DNA of 63,982 nucleotides, filler included, from an uncultured bacterium (lineage in GTDB: Bacteria; CAZSTA01), in NCBI GenBank assembly GCA_964609495.1. It is 5 parts of 5 records of this genome, joined end to end, with 100 filler letters (N's around TTAATTAATTAA, not from the genome) between each part and the next. Parts side by side here need not be neighbours in the genome. Positions count along the whole stretch, not along the records: positions 1 to 13,861 come from CAZSTA010000089.1; 4 more parts are not named here. The stretch is one strand, 5' to 3'. The notes under the pieces are model-generated. The model saw only the letters and a program-made list of their open reading frames with translations. It was not told where the DNA came from and did no database searches. The position numbers and the translations under genes are program-made. Each line of letters opens with the position of its first letter. Position 1 is the first letter of the stretch. Below are positions 2,992-63,982 of this stretch, in pieces.

Positions 2992-3034
2992 GTTTGCCGA
3001 AGAGAATTTGAAGATGGCTGAGATCGTCTAAGTA

Positions 3035-3202
3035 GGCTTACGTTCCCTCTCCCCTTATGGGAGAGGGATAGGGTGAGGGGGAATCATACCTTGAACTCCC
3101 TAACGAAGAACTAAGAATATGATACCCCGATTATAAGTTCAAAAACCAAAAGGGAGGGGGAACTAAAGAGAACCAGCTTATCTCGATGTTCCCTCTCCCC
3201 TT
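3035..3202. repeat. REP-like hairpin cassette, junction of two partial tandem units
   Basis: GTTCCCTCTCCCCTT at both 3042 and 3188. 3106-3159 matches the revcomp of 63928-63982 except for one indel. Confidence 0.85.
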
Positions 3203-3219
3203 TTCTTAAAGACCCATAT

Positions 3220-3732
3220 TTATTTCATCCGCTTTCCAAACTCATCTAAAGAGAATAACTGATCTATTGGTTTCCTACTCTTAGCTGGAGGAGATACATC
3301 GGGGACCCCCAGAGGAGTTAGAGCTACAACCTTTTTATCCGCTGGTATATTCAAGATCTTCTTAACCTCATCCTCTCTAAAAGCTCCAATCCAGCACGTG
3401 CCGTATCCCATACTCGCCGCCGCAATAATGAGATTTTCCATAGCGATGGTTGTATCCACCACACACCACTTCTCACTGACATCGGGCAGAGCTACTCCAG
3501 CTATGACGACATCAGCATCTCCGACCCAAGTTTGACCATTGCAAGCCTCCGCCACTCTCCTCTTTATCCCTGGGTCCTTCACCACTACTATATGCCGTGG
3601 TTGTCTATTAGCCGCTGAAGGCGCTTGTCTAGCCACCTCCAAGAGAGTTTTAAGGTCATCCTCAGGGATATTATCCGGCTTATACTTCCTAATACTCCTT
3701 CTAGCCATAATCGCCTCTATCGTATCCATCAT
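3220..3732 (-). CDS. Nitroreductase family protein
   Basis: RRSIRKY, APSAANRQP and GYGTCWIG motifs. Likely start is the ATG at 3732 after an AAAGGAGAGG SD. Confidence 0.9.
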   Translation of the reverse strand: MMDTIEAIMARRSIRKYKPDNIPEDDLKTLLEVARQAPSAANRQPRHIVVVKDPGIKRRVAEACNGQTWVGDADVVIAGVALPDVSEKWCVVDTTIAMENLIIAAASMGYGTCWIGAFREDEVKKILNIPADKKVVALTPLGVPDVSPPAKSRKPIDQLFSLDEFGKRMK

Positions 3733-11941: not shown

Positions 11942-11965
11942 TTGAGTAAAATATAGCATAAATCT

Positions 11966-12006
11966 AAAAGGCGGTGGATCATAATATTCACCGCTTTTCA
12001 TTTTTT
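11966..12006 (+). terminator. Rho-independent terminator, probably bidirectional
   Basis: AAAAGGCGGTGGAT/ATTCACCGCTTTT stem followed by a T tract. Confidence 0.75.
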
Positions 12007-12453
12007 CAATTTCTCAAGCAGAATTATCGTTATTCTTACTATTTTGTAAACAGGGATCTCACCTCCTTATTCGATTCTGATGATGAAAGGCAACAAGTTT
12101 AAGAAGGAAATGGCTCCCCACCTACTATGGTATAGGCAGGAACTCCGAGGAGTGACGGGTAAAAAGACAGTTCTCCTGAATTAACAAGAGAGCTTTTTAT
12201 CCAGTTATATTTGAATTTGCAGAGTGGGTTAGAGAGAGGGATACGTCGACCTTAGAAAGCCGATATTTTCAAATAGAAGTCATTGGTTTTCTGACAAGGA
12301 AATCGTAATGTTTTACTTTTAATTTAGTTTATATTTTGGTATAATATAAGTTAGAATGAGAAATTCAGGAAGTCCCCTCGCAGTTTAGTATTCAAGTATT
12401 CATAGCTCGGAGACTTATTGAGGAACTCTTTGATTAAGGTAAGCTTCACCGTA

Positions 12454-12482
12454 ATTATAATATAAGAGCTTTCTCAAGTCAA
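12454..12482 (-). promoter_or_regulatory. Leftward consensus promoter with no long downstream ORF
   Basis: TTGACT-17 bp-TATAAT on the minus strand. Confidence 0.5.
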
Positions 12483-12498
12483 GAGAGTGAAAGCAGAT

Positions 12499-12776
12499 GT
12501 AAGCATGTAAAGTTTGTGCTAGCAGATTTTAAGTAGCTTTTCGCTAGGGAGTTCAAGATATAAATCCCCCCTCACCCTGGCCCTCTCCCACGAGGGGAGA
12601 GGGAACAGCAAGATAAGCTCGATCTCTTTAGTTCCCCCTCCCTTGACGGGAGGGGGTTAGGGGGAGGGTGATAATTAACAAGATTCCTTGACAGCCTTAT
12701 TAATTCAGCAAAAACCAAGATGGGAGGGTGATTTAAGGGAAGTTCAATTTCCCAGCACGGAGTTTTACATGCTTAC
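12499..12776. mobile_element. MITE (278 bp) with TIRs and 9-bp TSD, carrying REP-like hairpins
   Basis: Ends GTAAGCATGTAAA...TTTACATGCTTAC (13 bp perfect, ~22 bp imperfect). AAAGCAGAT is duplicated at 12490-12498 and 12777-12785. Confidence 0.9.
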
Positions 12777-12825
12777 AAAGCAGATTTAGAACTAAAATAT
12801 AAGGAGCAGGAGGTGAAGTAAGACA

Positions 12826-13861
12826 ATGGCAAATGCCCAGATTCTAGTTGTTGAAGATGAAAAAATCGTGGCTGAGAACATACGAGACAGGTTGAAAAGT
12901 TTGGGCTATGCTGTTGCTGTCGCCTATTCCGGAGAAGAAGCTATTCAAAAAACTACAGAGATGCGTCCGGATTTAGTACTGATAGATATCGTGTTAAAGG
13001 GGGATATAGATGGTGTAGAAGCTGCCGAGCGAATATGTGATAGTTTCGATATTCCGGTGGTTTATCTGACTGCTTATGCGGATGAGGATATATTGCAGAG
13101 AGCAAAGGTAACCGAGCCATTTGGCTATATCCTCAAGCCGTTCAAGGAAAGAGAATTACATACTATTATCGAGATGGCTCTCTACAAGCACGAGATGGGA
13201 AGCAAACTAAAAGAGAGTGAGAGGTGGCTTTCCACCATACTTAAAAGTATAGGTGATGCGGTGATTGCCACTGATACCGAGGGAGTCATAAGATTTATGA
13301 ATCCCGTTGCCGAGGCGCTGACAGGATGGGAGCAGGGAGAGGCTTTGGGTGAAGATCTGACAGAAATATTCAACATCATAGAGGGAGAAGCACTTATCCC
13401 GACTGAGAGTCCTGTAACGAAAGCACTTCGGGAGGGCATTATTGTCAGTCTGGCAGATCGTAGCATTGTGTTCATTGCCAAGGATGGAACAGAAACATCT
13501 ATTGAAGCCAACGCTGCACCCATCAAAGATGACGAAGGAAACATTACTGGTGTCGTTTTGGTCTTCCTCGATATCACCGAGCGCAAGCAGGCGGAGAGGG
13601 AAATAAGAAAATTAAGTTCTGCTGTTAAGCAGTCGATTGATGGTATAGCGATAGGTGATTTAGAACTAAAACTAGCATATGTGAACGATGCTTTTGCTAG
13701 GATGCATGATTATTCTCGCGAAGAAATGATTGGAATGAAAGTTGTAAATTTATATAATGAGGAGCAGATGGATGAATACAAGAGGAGTATAAATCAGATA
13801 AAAACACAGGGTTCATGGATAGGTGAAATAGATCATATCAGAAAAGATGGCACTCCTTTTC
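12826..13861 (+). CDS. Receiver-PAS-PAS signalling protein, 3'-truncated by the contig end (probably a hybrid kinase)
   Basis: REC domain (VVEDE, LIDI, GYILKPF) followed by two PAS domains. Runs into the linker. Confidence 0.85.
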
Positions 13862-16340: not shown

Positions 16341-16427
16341 TTGACTTTCTCTCTCAATTATGGTATACTAAGTTATGTTAAAGTTTTATATATCGATTAT
16401 TATACTATAGTTATATCCACAAGTCAA
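16341..16427. promoter_or_regulatory. Face-to-face promoter pair
   Basis: Plus: TTGACT(16341)-17-TATACT(16364). Minus: TTGACT(16427)-17-TATAAT(16404). Confidence 0.55.
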
Positions 16428-16442
16428 GTTGCTTTTAGATTA

Positions 16443-16635
16443 GTAGGCATGGAAACTTTGTGCTGGGAAATTGAACTTTCCTTAAATCACCCTCCCGTCA
16501 AGGGAGGGGAAACTGAAGAAAGCAGGCTTATCTCGATGTTTCCTCTTCCCCTCGTGGGAGAGGGATAGGGTGAGGAGGGAATCATATCTTGACTTCTTAG
16601 TAGAAATCTACTAGCACGAAATTTTACATACTTAG
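16443..16635. mobile_element. MITE (193 bp), inverted relative to the 12499 copy, with 9-bp TSD
   Basis: Ends GTAGGCATGGAAACTTTGTGCT...AGCACGAAATTTTACATACTTAG. TTTAGATTA is duplicated at 16434-16442 and 16636-16644. Confidence 0.9.
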
Positions 16636-16799
16636 TTTAGATTAAGAGTTTTCGAGTCCCTCAAATATCATTTTTGATTTATTCGTAATAAAAACTTTTA
16701 TTTTATCACTTTTTATGTTATAATTTGTTATAGTAACTTTCTGATCTCCCTAAGATTTTATTCGAAGCGAAAGTTGTGTAAAAGAGGGAGTGGAGATCG

Positions 16800-23402: not shown

Positions 23403-23537
23403 TTGAACTTCCTTTAGATCACCCTCCTCTAACCCCTCCCATCAAGGGAGGGGGAACTAAGGAGAGCAAGCTTATCTGGATATCCCCTCTCCCCTCGTGG
23501 GAGAGGGATAGGGTGAGGGGGAAATTATATCTTGAAC
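23403..23537. repeat. REP-like double-hairpin cassette (MITE core without the GTAAGCATG TIRs)
   Basis: CCCCTCCCATCAAGGGAGGGG and CCCTCTCCCCTCGTGGGAGAGGG, same internal spacer as the 12499 and 16443 copies. Confidence 0.88.
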
Positions 23538-23571
23538 CCACAATACTCAAAGAATACAGGAATATAAGGAG

Positions 23572-33094: not shown

Positions 33095-33180
33095 TTGAAC
33101 TCACCTTAAACCACCCTCCCCTAACCCCTCCCATCGAGGGAGGGGAAATAAAAAGAGAGGGATAGGGTGGGGGAGAATTA
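33095..33180. repeat. Internally deleted REP-like cassette
   Basis: CCCCTCCCATCGAGGGAGGGG joined to GAGAGGGATAGGGTG, between convergent genes. Confidence 0.8.
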
Positions 33181-33233: not shown

Positions 33234-36200
33234 TTAAGGGGTCCATTCTGCACGTAGATATAATTTGTAAGTGCCGTCCTTGAACAAAGTTAAGGTCGTA
33301 TCTCCAGACAGATTTGAAATATCCTCGAGAAAGTGGATGCCGATGAGGTCATCTTCGTTCAGCAATGCCCATCTATCCTGATCCAATTGTTTTGCAACTG
33401 CACGGGTTATTTCAAACAGAATTTCGCCCCATGATTTAGGCAATGGCTTATTAGCAGGTATCTCATATTTATAGAGTATATCCGAGGAATACATTTTAAC
33501 TATACCCATTGACGCCGACTTACCGGGAAACCCTATATCTTCTTCCATCCCGATAGCCATTATCGTAGATTCCTTTCGGGGTAGACCAAAGATACTGAAG
33601 TCAAAGATCGAGAAATTGTCTGAAAACGTATCCCCCTCCTCGACACCGCTATGGACTCCCCTTGAGCCTATTCCATACGACCACCCTCCGCTAGAATCAC
33701 GACCGTTAATGATGAGAAAGATCAGATATGGTTCGTCAGAGAACGCTTCATTTTGATCGATGCATGTGAATCCGGTGAACCTCACCTTTAGCTTTTCTAT
33801 CGGTATCTGCCTTGGAGATGATTTTACCTGACAAGGATTGAGCACCGTAAGGCTAACCGCCTTTGGCATAGGCCAACCTGGATGTTTTACACTCCAATCA
33901 TCTAAAGCTAGGGCAGCCTGTTCGAGCAATTCTGAGTTGATCCTAAGGACGAGCTTATTTGGGGCGGCTTGTTCCTTAACATAGTTGAAACCGGTCAGCT
34001 TCCGACCGCAGTATTTCATCTCCACGACTACGCCCATTTGGAAGCGCGTGCCTAGGATAGTAATTAACTCACCTGGTTTAAGCTTGCCAGTTACTGAAGT
34101 TATATTAGGGACTACCGCTGGGGCTCGTTTTAGGACGATGCGGTTCGATTCCCGTTGGTTACCGTTAACTACGCTTACCACTACTTTGCTGTTAGCCACT
34201 GTTGGCATGAATATCTTTGGCGAAAGTGTATCTGGAAGTCGAATCCTGAGTTCGGTCGGCTTATATGAATGAGGTGTCACTACGTATGCGTAGTGAACCT
34301 TTGTGTCAATACTGCTAAGCGGTTCAGTTGGCTTCAGCTCGTAAAAATAGACTCGTGCCCCCTGCTGAAAGTTATGACCATTTACCACCATCACATCGCA
34401 TACCTTAAGTGGCTCCGGTTTGATAGTGGTTATCTTCGGTATCCCTTTAGCTGGTGCTGGGATGACTTTAAGCTCTTTCTTATTCGATTCTTTCTTGGTC
34501 TGCGGATCTCTGATCCAGACCACCAGTGTCTTTGGCGACTTAAAGAATTTCGGTGGTACATACACTTCTACTGGTATAGCACGCTCAAGCTCTTCGGCAC
34601 CCGTTTTTCCCTTTTCGCTAATCAACACCCTATAATGTGGCAGAAAAATCTCGCTACATTTTATCTTAAGCAAAAGGCCGCGATGTTGTGTTGGTACTTT
34701 ATCGGGTGTGATCGAAATAATTTTAGGGAATGGGAATTCATAATCAATTTCTTCAAATTTAGCCGCAAGCGAGTCCGGTCCGCTTTTACCCTTCGCTTGA
34801 CCAATCCAAGCTTCAATCATTGCTAAGGATGGCACAGCCTCGGGCTGACCGATCTGTTCGGCAAGCTCTATTAGTTGTCCTTGTAGTTCAGTTGGATCCT
34901 CGATGCTTGCTAGCTCTGTTACTGATTCTATGCCGGCTTCTGATAGAAACTCCACTTCGTCTGGTCCGAGGCCTTCAATATTCGTCAGCTCAGCCTTCAA
35001 CGCAAGCTCTTTTAACTCCTCTTTAGGAAGACCTGTTTCTGTAGATAAAGCGTCTAAGTCTTCTTTCGAACGTAACTCAGGAAGTAGTTCTTCGAAGGTA
35101 TAGATCCCGGCCGTGCTTAACTCTCTTGGAACTTCTGCTAGCAAAATTTCTTCTACCAGCTCTTCTCTAGCTATTATGTCTATGGTACTACTAGTTTCGT
35201 TGTTCTCCTCATCGCTTTCGTTGATAACGTTCTCTGGATCAGCAAGCACAGTGACAATATGTTCGCCAGCTGGTCGCATCCTGGCAGTGAAATCGACCTC
35301 TTCTGCCTCTCCTGGCTCGATATATTCGATGACAGTGTGATTTAATGCAGTATAGCCGAACTCGGTGCTCTCATCGGTAATGATAACTAAGATTTGTTCG
35401 GCTGGCACTGCGCTTAAATTCTTAACGATTACTGTTATAACCGCCTCTTCATTTTCATACGGCTGTTCTGGGCTGAATGCGATGTCTTCGATCATCAAAT
35501 CAGGTAATTCTTCAGGTAATTCCTCTGGAAACTCCCCCGGTAGAACTGCAATATCTCTAGTTAATTCATTGTTCTCTTCGTTAAGTTCCATAATTTGGTT
35601 CTCTGGATCGATAAGCGCAGTTATGATATGTTCGCCGGGATCTTGTGCTGTGACAGTGATCTCAACCTCTTCTGCCTGGTCCGGTTCAAGGTATCCGATA
35701 CTCGCTTCACCTAAGAAGTGTTCCTCATCAGTTAAGAAGATCACCGGGATCCCTTCAATCGAAGCTTCGCCAACGTTTCTGACTAGCGCAATTAGCGTCA
35801 TTTCTTCGCCCTCATACGGCCTTTCAGAGCTGAAGATAAGTTCTTCGATCAACAAATCGGATAACTCCTCTTCTGGATAATATTCCGGAGGCATTACAAT
35901 CAATACCCTCTCCATACGATTGTTCTCTTCATTGACTTCTCTGATTCGGTTCTCTGGATCGTCGATCTCTCTTACGATCTGTTCGCCTTGGTCTTGGGCT
36001 GTGACAAAGATCTCGACCTCTTCTATCTGGTCCGGTTCAAGGTATTCGATACCTGCTTCACCTAAGAAGTGTTCCTCATCAGCCAAGAAGATCACCGGGA
36101 TCCCTTCAACTGGCGCCTCGCTAACGTTTCTGACTAGCGCGACCATCATCATTTCTTCGCCCTCATACGGCCTTTCAGAGCTGAAGATAAGCTCCTCAAT

Positions 36201-36641
36201 CACCAGATCAGGAAGTTCGCCAAAAGGTTCTTCTTCTGTTGGAACAGGATAGGTTATCTCAAGCACACCTTCTGCCTCGCCAGGACCTAGATTAACGAAG
36301 ATCGCGCGCCATTCAATGCCTCTCTCCAAAAGTTCCTCGGTTATCCAGAATTCTATAATTAATGGACTGGGGCCTTCCCTTTGAGCATACACCTCGCCAG
36401 CAGGGTCTTGAAGCATCAAAACAGCCTCTTCGGCTGGACCGCCCCATTCTGCAATCAGGGTGATCATACCGACAGAATGAACGGCAAACTCAAAGGAGAT
36501 CTCCTCTTCCGGACCAATATAAAACTTATGGGTTCCGGTTTCAACTTGAGCGGCGACTATTCCATACAGTGATAGAAATAAGGTCGCGCTCATAACTATT
36601 ACGAAATAAATCTTTGATTTGTTCAGAAACATTCTCATCAT
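33234..36641 (-). CDS. Large secreted protein: CARDB x3, DUF4332/HhH-like, IPT/TIG-like repeats, unknown C-terminal domain
   Basis: Signal peptide, LPDL...DPEN.I.E.NEENN repeats, IEGLGP..VEFL.EAGI.SV.EL, P.I..I.P repeats. Confidence 0.75.
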   Translation of the reverse strand: MMRMFLNKSKIYFVIVMSATLFLSLYGIVAAQVETGTHKFYIGPEEEISFEFAVHSVGMITLIAEWGGPAEEAVLMLQDPAGEVYAQREGPSPLIIEFWITEELLERGIEWRAIFVNLGPGEAEGVLEITYPVPTEEEPFGELPDLVIEELIFSSERPYEGEEMMMVALVRNVSEAPVEGIPVIFLADEEHFLGEAGIEYLEPDQIEEVEIFVTAQDQGEQIVREIDDPENRIREVNEENNRMERVLIVMPPEYYPEEELSDLLIEELIFSSERPYEGEEMTLIALVRNVGEASIEGIPVIFLTDEEHFLGEASIGYLEPDQAEEVEITVTAQDPGEHIITALIDPENQIMELNEENNELTRDIAVLPGEFPEELPEELPDLMIEDIAFSPEQPYENEEAVITVIVKNLSAVPAEQILVIITDESTEFGYTALNHTVIEYIEPGEAEEVDFTARMRPAGEHIVTVLADPENVINESDEENNETSSTIDIIAREELVEEILLAEVPRELSTAGIYTFEELLPELRSKEDLDALSTETGLPKEELKELALKAELTNIEGLGPDEVEFLSEAGIESVTELASIEDPTELQGQLIELAEQIGQPEAVPSLAMIEAWIGQAKGKSGPDSLAAKFEEIDYEFPFPKIISITPDKVPTQHRGLLLKIKCSEIFLPHYRVLISEKGKTGAEELERAIPVEVYVPPKFFKSPKTLVVWIRDPQTKKESNKKELKVIPAPAKGIPKITTIKPEPLKVCDVMVVNGHNFQQGARVYFYELKPTEPLSSIDTKVHYAYVVTPHSYKPTELRIRLPDTLSPKIFMPTVANSKVVVSVVNGNQRESNRIVLKRAPAVVPNITSVTGKLKPGELITILGTRFQMGVVVEMKYCGRKLTGFNYVKEQAAPNKLVLRINSELLEQAALALDDWSVKHPGWPMPKAVSLTVLNPCQVKSSPRQIPIEKLKVRFTGFTCIDQNEAFSDEPYLIFLIINGRDSSGGWSYGIGSRGVHSGVEEGDTFSDNFSIFDFSIFGLPRKESTIMAIGMEEDIGFPGKSASMGIVKMYSSDILYKYEIPANKPLPKSWGEILFEITRAVAKQLDQDRWALLNEDDLIGIHFLEDISNLSGDTTLTLFKDGTYKLYLRAEWTP
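35569..36215. repeat. Intragenic tandem duplication (351-bp period, CARDB units)
   Basis: TTGTTCTCTTC at 35569/35920 and CTTTCAGAGCTGAAGATAAG at 35821/36172. A third, diverged unit lies near 35200-35510. Confidence 0.85.
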
Positions 36642-46729: not shown

Positions 46730-46915
46730 TTCGCTAGTGAGTTCGAGATAATTTTCCCCCTCACCCTTAAAAGGTAACTTTTGCTTCAAATAGGACTCAA
46801 GGTTAAAAAGTTACCTTTTATCCCTCTCCCACGAGGGGAGAGGGGATTCTTGAGACCTGCGATTCCTTTTATTTCCCCCTCCCTCGATGGGAGGGGTTAG
46901 GGGAGGGTGATTTAA
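46730..46915. repeat. REP-like cassette carrying a nested insertion
   Basis: Same core as the 12499 and 63787 copies, but interrupted at CACCCT^ATCCC. Confidence 0.88.
46768..46820. mobile_element. 53-bp mini-insertion with perfect 15-bp inverted ends
   Basis: TAAAAGGTAACTTTT...AAAAGTTACCTTTTA, absent from all other cassette copies. Confidence 0.7.
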
Positions 46916-55155: not shown

Positions 55156-55171
55156 GGAAGGGGGAAAGAAA

Positions 55172-55249
55172 ATGGCAAATGCCCAGATTCTAGTTGTTGA
55201 AGATGAGAAAATCGTAGCTGAGAACATACGAGACAGGTTGAAAAGTTTG
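55172..55249 (+). CDS. Receiver-domain protein N-terminus, truncated by the contig end; paralog of 12826
   Basis: 76/78 nt identical to 12826-12903, both differences synonymous. Confidence 0.85.
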
Positions 55250-61091: not shown

Positions 61092-62129
61092 ATGACAGAC
61101 AAAAAATTGCTCGACTATGTGTTAGAAGATAAACAAGACACTATATTGAATGATGGATTGGGTAAATACTTGAAGCTATGGATCGCTACCTGTAAACGAT
61201 TTAAGGACTTCGTTTGCTGCTATAAAGACAAAATACGCAAGAAGATCAAAGGTATTAAGAAGGAGAAGGATGATGATGAGAGGAAGAGGAAGCTAGAGGA
61301 TCTTAGATTCGAGTTAGAGATTCCATATCTTATTCTTCTCGATGATCGCTTCGAGGTCGAATATGAAAAGTATGGCACAAAAACTAAAGGTCCAGACTTT
61401 TCTGTCATCTTTAATAATCTCATCGAATTCAATATTGAAGTTACGCATTTTCGTGAACATTATTTGAACGAACGCTATAACAAATGGGAAGAGGAAGTTG
61501 AAAGTGAGATTAGAGCTATACCATCAAATTTCCATTTCATCCTAGATGTTAACCCAGTCAAACCCTACCTGATAATTCGATTGGAATCTGCAAAAGAAAA
61601 AATCATCCAATATATGAAGGATTTCAGCCAGGAGGTAGATCAAGAGGTAGATGAGATAGAATCTCCTATACCTGGTTTTGAAAGAGAGCTAAAGCTGACT
61701 CTGTTAAATAAAGCTAGGAAGGGTCAAACATACTTTCGTATCTTGAGATTTGAATTCCAAACCGGTAAAGAATATCTCAAATTGGGCAATGTTCTCTTTG
61801 GTAAGAAGGGTAAACTTAAACAGATGAGACCGGGGATGATCAATATACTTATCATTAATACCACAAGTGCTAACTATGATGAAATAGATATACAGGATGG
61901 ACAGGATGAGATTGTCAAAATTCCATCCTGTAAGGATGAGAAGAGCTTTGTTGAAAAGGGATTTCGAGGGAGAAAAGATTTTCTTCAACATTGGAAGAGA
62001 TTAAGCGGTATTTTGTCCAGATTATTCGGAGGTGAAAAAAGTCGGATTTTTTGGTGTAGTGAACAGGCTGATCACCAAATCCCAGAACCTATAAGACAAT
62101 ACTTAAAAGGAATGACCTCTCTATTCTAA
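61092..62129 (+). CDS. Hypothetical protein, possible PD-(D/E)xK nuclease fold
   Basis: VEYE.......GPDF.......FNIEVT motif, 345 aa. Confidence 0.55.
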   Translation: MTDKKLLDYVLEDKQDTILNDGLGKYLKLWIATCKRFKDFVCCYKDKIRKKIKGIKKEKDDDERKRKLEDLRFELEIPYLILLDDRFEVEYEKYGTKTKGPDFSVIFNNLIEFNIEVTHFREHYLNERYNKWEEEVESEIRAIPSNFHFILDVNPVKPYLIIRLESAKEKIIQYMKDFSQEVDQEVDEIESPIPGFERELKLTLLNKARKGQTYFRILRFEFQTGKEYLKLGNVLFGKKGKLKQMRPGMINILIINTTSANYDEIDIQDGQDEIVKIPSCKDEKSFVEKGFRGRKDFLQHWKRLSGILSRLFGGEKSRIFWCSEQADHQIPEPIRQYLKGMTSLF

Positions 62130-62618: not shown

Positions 62619-62685
62619 GGCTTAATTATGTTCCCTCTCCCCTCGTGGGAGAGGGATAGGGTGAGGGGAATTTATATTTTGAACT
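62619..62685. repeat. Partial REP-like cassette (single hairpin)
   Basis: GTTCCCTCTCCCCTCGTGGGAGAGGGATAGGGTGAGGGG. Confidence 0.85.
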
Positions 62686-63786: not shown

Positions 63787-63982
63787 CTAAGCATGTAAAC
63801 TTTGTTTGTGCTAGCCAGATTTTAAGTAGCTTTTCGCTAGTGAGTTCGAGATATAAATCCCCCCTCACCCTATCCCTCTCCCACGAGGGGAGAGGGAACA
63901 TCCAGATAAGCTGGCTCTCTTGATCTTCCCCTCCCTTTTGGTTTTTGAACTTATAATCGGGGGTATCATATTCTTAGTTCTT
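63787..63982. mobile_element. MITE copy, truncated by the window end
   Basis: Begins CTAAGCATGTAAAC and follows the 12499 copy closely through the first hairpin, then switches to the module seen at 3106-3159. Confidence 0.85.

What the first reader, a model, noticed from the sequence alone, without database searches (positions are those of the whole stretch)
12490..12785. MITE with 9-bp target-site duplication that carries REP-like hairpin cassettes
Seen: a 278-bp non-coding element with TIR GTAAGCATGTAAA, flanked by an exact AAAGCAGAT duplication. It encloses the CCCTCTCCCACGAGGGGAGAGGG and CCCCTCCC..GGGAGGGG hairpins found in 8 places in this window. Known: TIR plus 9-bp TSD is the signature of DDE transposases (e.g. 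IS4/IS256-type), whereas classical REP/REPIN hairpins are associated with HUH RAYTs. Inference: a DDE-mobilised MITE is the vehicle spreading this hairpin family, a hybrid I do not recognise as described.
Basis: partly seen in the sequence, partly recalled or inferred. Interest (0 to 1): 0.75.

Follow-up and report, generated by a model that had tools for sequence, protein, structure and literature searches.

The report
Promoter-seeking mini-transposon carrying BoxC hairpins
This is a real miniature jumping element, most likely moved by a known transposase type that lands just upstream of promoters, and it carries a long-known, widespread bacterial hairpin repeat as a passenger rather than being that repeat's main source.

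Summary
The element is real: 278 bp, 13-bp perfect TIR, 9-bp TSD. A second copy (16443-16635) has its own 9-bp TSD, and a third left end lies at 63787. Both complete copies sit 16 and 15 bp upstream of the -35 box of near-consensus sigmaA/70 promoters. That spacing is the published signature of Mutator-like p-MULT3 (ISLre2/TnGBS) and ISKra4 transposases, and the ends resemble ISLre2 ends (C-start left, G-start right), though the core motif lies 2 nt further in. The hairpins are not RAYT-type REPs but the BoxC/PIT/TM triplex repeat, in the same type A+B pair as in E. coli. The MITE as 'the' vehicle is not supported: 5 of 8 hairpin loci lack any TIR trace or adjacent promoter, and TIR-free BoxC occurs across phyla. 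Best reading: an ISLre2-type MITE that captured a BoxC pair and carries it as a secondary vehicle. Side result: BoxC-type hairpins flank DUF559 endonuclease genes in 9 of 11 loci tested, a candidate primary mobiliser that I did not find in print. Neither the cognate transposase nor an empty allele was found.

The parts
12490..12498 (+). Left target-site duplication (9 bp)
12499..12776 (+). MITE copy 1, 278 bp, non-coding
12499..12524 (+). Left end: perfect 13-bp TIR plus imperfect subterminal repeat (to about 24 bp); ISLre2-like
12551..12556 (+). Left GTTCAA motif, near the left limit of the hairpin core shared with TIR-less copies
12569..12603 (-). BoxC/TM triplex motif, type-B-like (second loop CCA); strict match to the published E. 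coli consensus
12634..12668 (+). BoxC/TM motif, type A (second loop TTA); within 2 mismatches of the consensus; forms an inverted pair with the first
12645..12718 (+). 74-bp segment absent from copy 2; starts at the BoxC-2 loop, ends in CAAAAACCAA and rejoins a second BoxC-2 right half at the same loop position
12742..12747 (+). Right GTTCAA motif; similarity of the TIR-less 23.4 kb and 33.1 kb copies stops right after it
12751..12776 (-). Right end (perfect TIR 12764-12776)
12777..12785 (+). Right target-site duplication
12454..12482 (-). Host sigma70/sigmaA-type promoter-like site TTGACT-17-TATAAT, -35 box 16 bp from the element end, pointing away (consensus match only)
16443..16635 (-). MITE copy 2, 193 bp; C-start left end, G-start right end; BoxC pair inside
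16434..16442 (+). TSD of copy 2 (TTTAGATTA), repeated at 16636-16644
16399..16427 (-). Promoter-like site TTGACT-17-TATAAT, -35 box 15 bp from the right end of copy 2
63787..63982 (+). MITE copy 3: left end and BoxC core; right end lies beyond the window, TSD not testable
3040..3201 (-). TIR-less BoxC cassette (two partial units), between convergent genes
23403..23541 (-). TIR-less BoxC pair bracketed by GTTCAA motifs
33095..33176 (-). TIR-less, partly deleted BoxC pair, between convergent genes
46738..46911 (+). TIR-less BoxC pair interrupted by a 53-bp inverted-repeat insert (46768-46820), between convergent genes
62629..62685 (-). TIR-less single BoxC

Best explanation
A non-autonomous derivative (MITE) of an ISLre2-like (p-MULT3, Mutator/IS256 superfamily) insertion sequence. 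A transposase supplied in trans binds the two ends and excises the element, by family precedent as a circle (inferred). It inserts the element 15-16 bp upstream of the -35 box of a housekeeping-sigma promoter, making a 9-bp duplication (spacing and TSD shown in 2 of 2 complete copies). An ancestor acquired a BoxC type A+B pair, a repeat that was already spreading in this genome by another route (inferred). Since then the MITE has copied that cargo to promoter regions. It is a secondary carrier of BoxC, not the source of the family.
For: Two independent 9-bp TSDs. -35 boxes 16 and 15 bp from an end; only 11 sites of 11/12 or better exist in the window, and an intergenic position has such a site 15-17 bp away in 22 of 6870 cases (0.3%), or 49 of 6870 at 10/12. 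Published rule: TnGBS/ISLre2 insert 15-17 bp upstream of -35 with 8-9 bp DR, at IR-right, or at either end if the IRs are nearly perfect (PMC3942029). Copy 2 (asymmetric ends) has the promoter at its G-start right end; copy 1 (perfect TIR) has it at the left; copy 3 (C-start left end) has none on the left. ISLcr1 starts CTAAG and ends with a GTAAG end, 9-bp DR; ISCbe4 starts CTTAG; TnGBS1 starts GTAAG (Table S1 rows). The 5 ends score 7.2-10.2 on a profile from 10 plasmid ISLre2 ends, reached by 2-3 of 4000 random positions; two IS66 ends score below 0. TIR-less copies show no end remnants (scores 10-15, null 95th percentile 14-15) and no promoter within 80 bp (0 of 5).
Against: No transposase with these ends was found: none among 49 window ORFs scanned in Pfam, and the GTDB scan gave 2 hits, both inside ORFs with no partner end. 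No empty allele was seen. n = 2 complete copies. The TAAA core lies at position 9, against 7 in the ISLre2 ends seen and 8 in TnGBS; the profile score needed a 2-nt insertion chosen after seeing the data, and about 100 of 127,964 window positions score as high as the weakest end. The promoters are consensus matches only. With my strict scan only 1 of 4 plasmid ISLre2 copies with a clean DR had a promoter at 16 bp. ISLre2 is 92% Firmicutes (PMC9208149) and the host is unidentified. TIR-less copies share some inner flank with the MITE, so loss of ends cannot be excluded.
Confidence: 0.68

Rival explanations
1. One reading: the MITE is the vehicle of the hairpin family in this genome, and TIR-less copies are decayed MITEs that lost their ends (as truncated QMITE2 copies resemble REPs).
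For: Cores with and without TIRs are about equally alike (e.g. 12k/63k 88/100, 63k/23k 86/98, 12k/16k 83/99). TIR-less copies share about 15-30 nt of inner left flank and the right GTTCAA stretch with the MITE. Precedent in QMITE2.
Against: 0 of 5 TIR-less loci keep an end or a promoter at the expected place. Two stop at the same point after GTTCAA. 3 of 5 lie between convergent genes and the other 2 just downstream of a gene, unlike the promoter sites of the complete copies. BoxC without these TIRs occurs in many phyla.
Confidence: 0.15
2. The MITE is mobilised by another 9-bp DDE family: IS256 (p-MULT1), ISKra4 (p-MULT4), IS66/ISBst12 or IS4/IS10; the promoter spacing is coincidence or belongs to ISKra4.
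For: IS256 ends carry a similar TGTAAA..TTTGTG motif (ISCcl1, ISCbe6). IS66 ends start GTAA. ISKra4 targets promoters at either end.
Against: IS256 insertion is not promoter-linked. Both IS66 examples have 8-bp DRs and share only the first 3-4 bases. All ISKra4 rows seen start GGG. The chance of the spacing twice is about 1e-5 to 4e-4 in intergenic DNA, by threshold.
Confidence: 0.14
3. The primary spread of the BoxC cargo is driven by a DUF559 (Vsr-like PD-(D/E)XK) endonuclease whose gene is flanked by BoxC-type hairpins, in the way RAYT is flanked by REPs. This is complementary to the best explanation, not exclusive of it.
For: Of 11 DUF559 loci (E. coli ycjD plus 10 of 34 tblastn hits, chosen for distinct genera), 6 have a TM-like motif within 250 bp (11 hits in 9.0 kb near against 1 in 59 kb far). 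8 have a C-rich/G-rich hairpin; 9 of 11 by either test. Three window copies show a precise junction at the BoxC-2 loop.
Against: Association only; no DUF559 among the window ORFs. The far controls are mostly coding, and the 0 of 6 ISLre2 control loci are not matched for host or base composition. ycjD absence in E. coli Nissle is a replacement by another cluster, not a clean empty site. DUF559 genes could instead be targets or neighbours of BoxC.
Confidence: 0.35
4. The TIR and TSD are chance or an assembly artefact around an ordinary BoxC mosaic.
For: Draft assembly with 6 gaps; no outside copy of the ends was found.
Against: A second, diverged copy has a different exact 9-bp TSD; three copies share the ends; copy 1 is more than 1 kb from a gap.
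Confidence: 0.02

Closest known systems
ISLre2 family / TnGBS (p-MULT3), e.g. ISLcr1, ISCbe4, ISLbu1 (PMC3942029)
   Same: 9-bp DR; insertion 15-17 bp upstream of the -35 box; C-start left and G-start right ends with a TAAA core; promoter at either end when the IRs are symmetric.
   Different: No transposase gene, 190-280 bp; core motif 2 nt further from the end; both ends of the TAAA type; BoxC cargo. I found no ISLre2-derived MITE or in the passages read; ISfinder could not be checked.
BoxC / PIT / TM intrastrand triplex repeat (PMC4666352)
   Same: Strict consensus match at 5 window loci; inverted type A + type B pair; intergenic.
   Different: That paper found no link to transposons or transposase remnants in E. 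coli; here 3 of 8 loci are inside a TIR element.
QMITE2 of Coxiella burnetii (as reviewed in PMC10969869)
   Same: MITE of about 190 bp, 7-9 bp DR, bears a REP-type palindrome; truncated copies look like REPs.
   Different: GTAG-type REP, not BoxC; no promoter targeting in the passages read.
REP/REPIN-RAYT systems and TIRtrons (PMC3733652)
   Same: Paired G+C-rich hairpins, intergenic, mosaic arrays.
   Different: No GTAG/CGTC tag on the hairpins, no RAYT in the window, third-strand tract present, flanking TSD present.
ISKra4 promoter-targeting lineage (p-MULT4)
   Same: Promoter at either end, near-perfect IRs, 8-9 bp DR.
   Different: Ends start GGG in all rows seen.

Membership tests
Prokaryotic MITE | TIRs, short, non-coding | tested here: met
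   278 and 193 bp; 13-bp perfect TIR; longest open frame 66 codons
Prokaryotic MITE | TSD differing between copies | tested here: met
   2 of 2 complete copies, different 9-mers
Prokaryotic MITE | Empty allele in a relative | not testable with these tools
   No related genome retrieved; the paralogous gene start at 55166 shares no upstream DNA
ISLre2/TnGBS (p-MULT3) derivative | 8-9 bp DR | tested here: met
ISLre2/TnGBS (p-MULT3) derivative | Insertion 15-17 bp upstream of a sigmaA -35 box | tested here: met
   16 and 15 bp, 2 of 2; background 0.3-1.9% per intergenic site by threshold
ISLre2/TnGBS (p-MULT3) derivative | Promoter at IR-right, either side only if the IRs are near-perfect | tested here: met
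   Copy 2 right, symmetric copy 1 left, copy 3 none at left; n is small
ISLre2/TnGBS (p-MULT3) derivative | Family-type IR sequence, 18-39 bp | tested here: inconclusive
   Same first 5 bases as ISLcr1 and top 0.1% on an ISLre2 profile, but the core is 2 nt further in and about 100 chance positions score as well; the Fig. S1 logos were not visible
ISLre2/TnGBS (p-MULT3) derivative | Cognate ISLre2 transposase bounded by the same ends | tested here: inconclusive
   None in the window, GTDB, plasmids or phages; the rest of the host genome was unavailable
ISLre2/TnGBS (p-MULT3) derivative | Circular transposition intermediate | not testable with these tools
   needs reads or PCR
ISKra4 (p-MULT4) derivative | Ends starting GGG | tested here: not met
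   All 12 ISKra4 rows shown start GGG
IS256 (p-MULT1) derivative | No promoter-linked target | tested here: not met
   DR length and IR motif are compatible
IS66/ISBst12 derivative | 8-bp DR and IS66-type IR | tested here: not met
   9-bp DR; only the first 3-4 bases shared with two IS66 examples
BoxC/PIT/TM repeat (cargo) | Consensus CCCTCNCCC N3-6 GGGNGAGGG N3 GGGNGAGGG | tested here: met
   5 strict matches in the window, 0 in 100 simulated windows
BoxC/PIT/TM repeat (cargo) | Inverted type A + type B pairing, intergenic | tested here: met
BoxC/PIT/TM repeat (cargo) | Triplex formation in vitro | not testable with these tools
   shown only for E. coli oligonucleotides
RAYT-associated REP/REPIN | GTAG/CGTC tag next to the hairpin | tested here: not met
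   read from the aligned copies
RAYT-associated REP/REPIN | RAYT gene flanked by the repeat | tested here: inconclusive
   none among 49 window ORFs; rest of genome unseen

The most novel reading that the evidence does not exclude
BoxC/TM repeats, unexplained since the 1990s, are the non-autonomous partners of DUF559 endonuclease genes (a RAYT-like system built on a PD-(D/E)XK nuclease that cuts at the hairpin loop), and in this host a promoter-targeting ISLre2-type MITE has captured the BoxC pair and acts as a second carrier, placing triplex-forming cassettes at a fixed 15-16 bp upstream of housekeeping promoters.
Probability: 0.27. Interest if true: 0.78.

Novelty: new variant of a known kind. 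Interest (0 to 1): 0.52.

Why it matters
The element extends the promoter-targeting Mutator-like family to miniature non-autonomous forms and gives a first concrete route by which BoxC triplex repeats can move; the 2015 survey found no mobility functions near them in E. coli. Such a MITE drops about 200-290 bp of strongly folding DNA into regulatory regions without breaking the promoter it targets. The DUF559-BoxC adjacency makes the old question of what spreads BoxC directly testable in E. coli K-12 with YcjD. On its own the MITE is a new combination of known parts.

Tried and rejected
GTDB scan with an end-plus-subterminal pattern: 2 hits, both within ORFs, no partner end, no BoxC; treated as chance. 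No further scan was available, so neither relatives nor the autonomous element were found; the host may be absent from the collection or masked there. Metagenome and IMG/VR collections stayed unchecked. blastn of the ends against plasmids: 3 and 1 weak hits (E of 3 or more), none at an IS end. Whole element against plasmids (487 records; 40 listed) and phages (24 records; 15 listed): the listed rows match only the BoxC part. The paralogous response-regulator start at 55166 is not an empty site. Rfam: nothing at gathering score; the whalefall-1 match is 16.7 against 37 bits, rejected. IS66 was my first lead from memory and was dropped (8-bp DR, dissimilar IR). A 7-bp TSD with a 14-bp TIR is formally possible for each copy, but the extra base differs between copies, so 9 bp is preferred. 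Of 8 ISLre2-like loci examined, 4 gave IR plus 9-bp DR, 3 gave IRs without a DR, 1 was masked; the profile used those 4 and L020. E. coli ycjD: 3343 of 5426 genomes cover at least 80% of the locus, but the one lacking strain examined has another gene cluster there, so this is inconclusive. The 345-aa ORF near the 62.6 kb BoxC matched only unnamed clusters. The cluster look-up for window proteins could not be made, so the host lineage is unknown. No fold or complex prediction was run: no element-encoded protein exists.

Full report
OBSERVATION. The sequence is as described. The element spans 12499-12776 (278 bp) with a perfect 13-bp TIR and an exact 9-bp flanking repeat; of flank lengths 4-13 only 9 matches. 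It is non-coding (longest open frame 66 codons) and lies between a homocysteine S-methyltransferase gene and a response-regulator gene. A 9-bp match has probability 4.6e-6 per register, 85 of 200,000 with slack, and 1 of 47 perfect 13-mer inverted pairs in the window has one. A second copy at 16443-16635 (minus, 193 bp) has imperfect versions of the same ends and its own exact 9-bp TSD. A third left end lies at 63787 and runs off the window. The other 5 of the 8 hairpin loci have no trace of either end: local scores 10-15 against null 95th percentiles of 14-15, versus 23-50 for the TIR copies.

THE CARGO IS BOXC. The hairpins carry a third C-rich tract and match the E. coli BoxC/PIT/TM triplex consensus (PMC4666352; passages, sections 18 and 19 in full). 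There are 5 strict matches in the window and 0 in 100 simulated windows. Copy 1 holds a minus-strand type-B-like motif (12569-12603) facing a plus-strand type A motif (12634-12668), the pairing that paper reports for all five E. coli pairs. The same pair without these TIRs is in Enterobacter and Pantoea plasmid records, and in-frame inside a Pseudanabaena methyltransferase gene; 487 plasmid records match, and the 40 rows listed match only the BoxC part. The hairpins lack the GTAG/CGTC tags of RAYT-type REPs (PMC3733652, passages), and no RAYT or other transposase was among 49 window ORFs scanned. The paper states that no transposase or integrase remnants were found near TM sites in E. coli.

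THE TARGET SITE NAMES THE MOBILISER. Both complete copies sit next to a TTGACT-17-TATAAT site pointing away from the element: 16 bp from the left end of copy 1 and 15 bp from the right end of copy 2. These sites lie outside the TSDs, at opposite ends, with different spacers, so they are host DNA. The window has 11 sites of that quality. An intergenic position has one 15-17 bp away in 22 of 6870 cases; at looser thresholds 49 and 133 of 6870. I noticed the spacing first and recalled the family afterwards, so these are post hoc figures on n = 2. PMC3942029 (main text parts 1-4 of 6; supplementary legends; Table S1 rows through five searches; logos not visible) reports that p-MULT3 elements (ISLre2, TnGBS) and one ISKra4 lineage insert 15-17 bp upstream of sigmaA -35 boxes with 8-9 bp DRs, at IR-right unless the IRs are near-perfect, while IS256 shows no such bias. 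The three copies fit that orientation rule: asymmetric copy 2 has the promoter at its G-start right end, symmetric copy 1 at the left, and copy 3 has none by its C-start left end. ISLcr1 has a CTAAG left end, a GTAAG right end and a 9-bp DR. All 12 ISKra4 rows shown start GGG. A profile from 10 plasmid ISLre2 ends scored the five ends 7.2-10.2, reached by 2-3 of 4000 random positions. Against this, the TAAA core lies 2 nt further in than in ISLre2, the score needed that insertion, the ends are not independent, and about 100 window positions score as high. Only 1 of 4 plasmid ISLre2 copies with a clean DR passed my promoter scan at 16 bp; p-MULT3 rows seen in Table S1 give ratios of 0.22-0.59. 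IS66 was considered and dropped: 8-bp DRs and dissimilar IRs in two examples (PMC12898284 passages). PMC8024623 (passages) shows 9-bp DRs also for an IS4-family element, so TSD length alone does not decide.

MECHANISM. Shown: repeated TIR-bounded insertion with 9-bp TSDs; fixed promoter spacing in 2 of 2; BoxC identity. Inferred from family precedent: an ISLre2-type DDE transposase acting in trans through a circular intermediate. Inferred from anatomy: capture of a pre-existing BoxC pair. The TIR-less copies lie at gene 3' ends (3 of 5 between convergent genes), have no promoter within 80 bp (0 of 5), and two stop at the same point after GTTCAA. Cores with and without TIRs are equally alike, so the data cannot order events, and decay of older MITEs remains possible. 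The cognate transposase was not found: the single GTDB scan returned two hits inside ORFs, and plasmid and phage searches found no end match. No empty allele was seen. The host is unidentified (could not be made).

WHAT ELSE MIGHT SPREAD BOXC. From memory, BoxC was first seen near E. coli fabI, beside ycjD (DUF559). I tested this. K-12 has a strict TM motif 166 bp from ycjD. Of 34 tblastn hits on plasmids I fetched 10 from distinct genera. With ycjD, 6 of 11 loci have a TM-like motif within 250 bp (11 hits in 9.0 kb, against 1 in 59 kb further off). 8 of 11 have a C-rich/G-rich hairpin (18 near; the 13 far hits are one array continuing from the gene in L015). 9 of 11 pass one test; the two cyanobacterial loci show related hairpins by eye only. 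Controls are weak: far DNA is mostly coding. DUF559 is a Vsr-like PD-(D/E)XK family that includes an intron homing endonuclease (PMC3424549, passages). This is an association, not a mechanism, and no DUF559 is in the window. In three window copies a 10-mer is joined exactly at the BoxC-2 loop with no duplication, which suggests a second agent acting on the loop.

COMPARISON AND NOVELTY. It works like an ISLre2-family element, and membership as a derivative is likely but unproven. A MITE bearing a REP is described (QMITE2, PMC10969869 passages), and IS insertion into REPs is well known (PMC3184786 passages). I found no report of an ISLre2-derived MITE, of BoxC inside a TIR element, or of a BoxC-DUF559 link in ten full-text searches (listings only, except the papers named) or in passages of PMC11602168 and PMC9208149. 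The library lacks most subscription papers, one review was not held, ISfinder was not available, and the MITE catalogue in the supplements of PMC11602168 was not examined and could hold this family.

VERDICT. New variant of a known kind, interest 0.52. The promoter spacing gives a sharp prediction for the rest of the genome, and the DUF559 lead is the part most worth an experiment.

Noticed in passing
window 46768-46820: 53-bp insert with a perfect 15-bp inverted repeat, sitting in the TA between the third strand and hairpin of a BoxC copy; single copy in the window; looks like a different mini-element with a TA-type target.
   Followed up: partly
window 3140-3149, 12709-12718, 63938-63947: The same 10-mer is joined to a BoxC-2 half exactly at the loop in three copies, in either orientation and with no duplication; agent unknown.
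   Followed up: partly
L006 2706-2920; L008-L017 around 3000-3400: DUF559 endonuclease genes are flanked by BoxC-type hairpins in 9 of 11 loci by script; Photobacterium L015 has a 1.5-kb array of them next to the gene.
   Followed up: partly
window 11942-12482: The targeted promoter points into a 500-bp stretch with no ORF over 42 aa and a terminator-like site at 12191-12172 (minus); possibly a small RNA of about 260 nt; no Rfam match.
   Followed up: partly
window 12328-12357 and 16341-16369: At both insertion sites a plus-strand promoter-like site faces the targeted one, so the MITE may lie in the 5' leader of the downstream gene (response regulator; roadblock/LC7 protein).
   Followed up: no
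L004 789-2529: Four BoxC motifs are translated in-frame within a Pseudanabaena DNA methyltransferase gene.
   Followed up: no
window 61092-62129: 345-aa ORF with no Pfam or NCBIfam match and a PD...ExT motif by eye (possible nuclease); nearest Atlas clusters (0.95-0.96) are unnamed.
   Followed up: partly
window 12820-12903 and 55166-55249: Two 96%-identical response-regulator gene starts with unrelated upstream DNA; the second ends at an assembly gap.
   Followed up: partly
window 13862, 16125, 27801, 38884, 41636, 55250: Six assembly gaps; five are 100-bp N runs with a TTAATTAA linker, which create the largest 'repeat family' in the window.
   Followed up: yes
window 33234-36641: 1135-aa protein with three CARDB repeats and DUF4332.
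   Followed up: no
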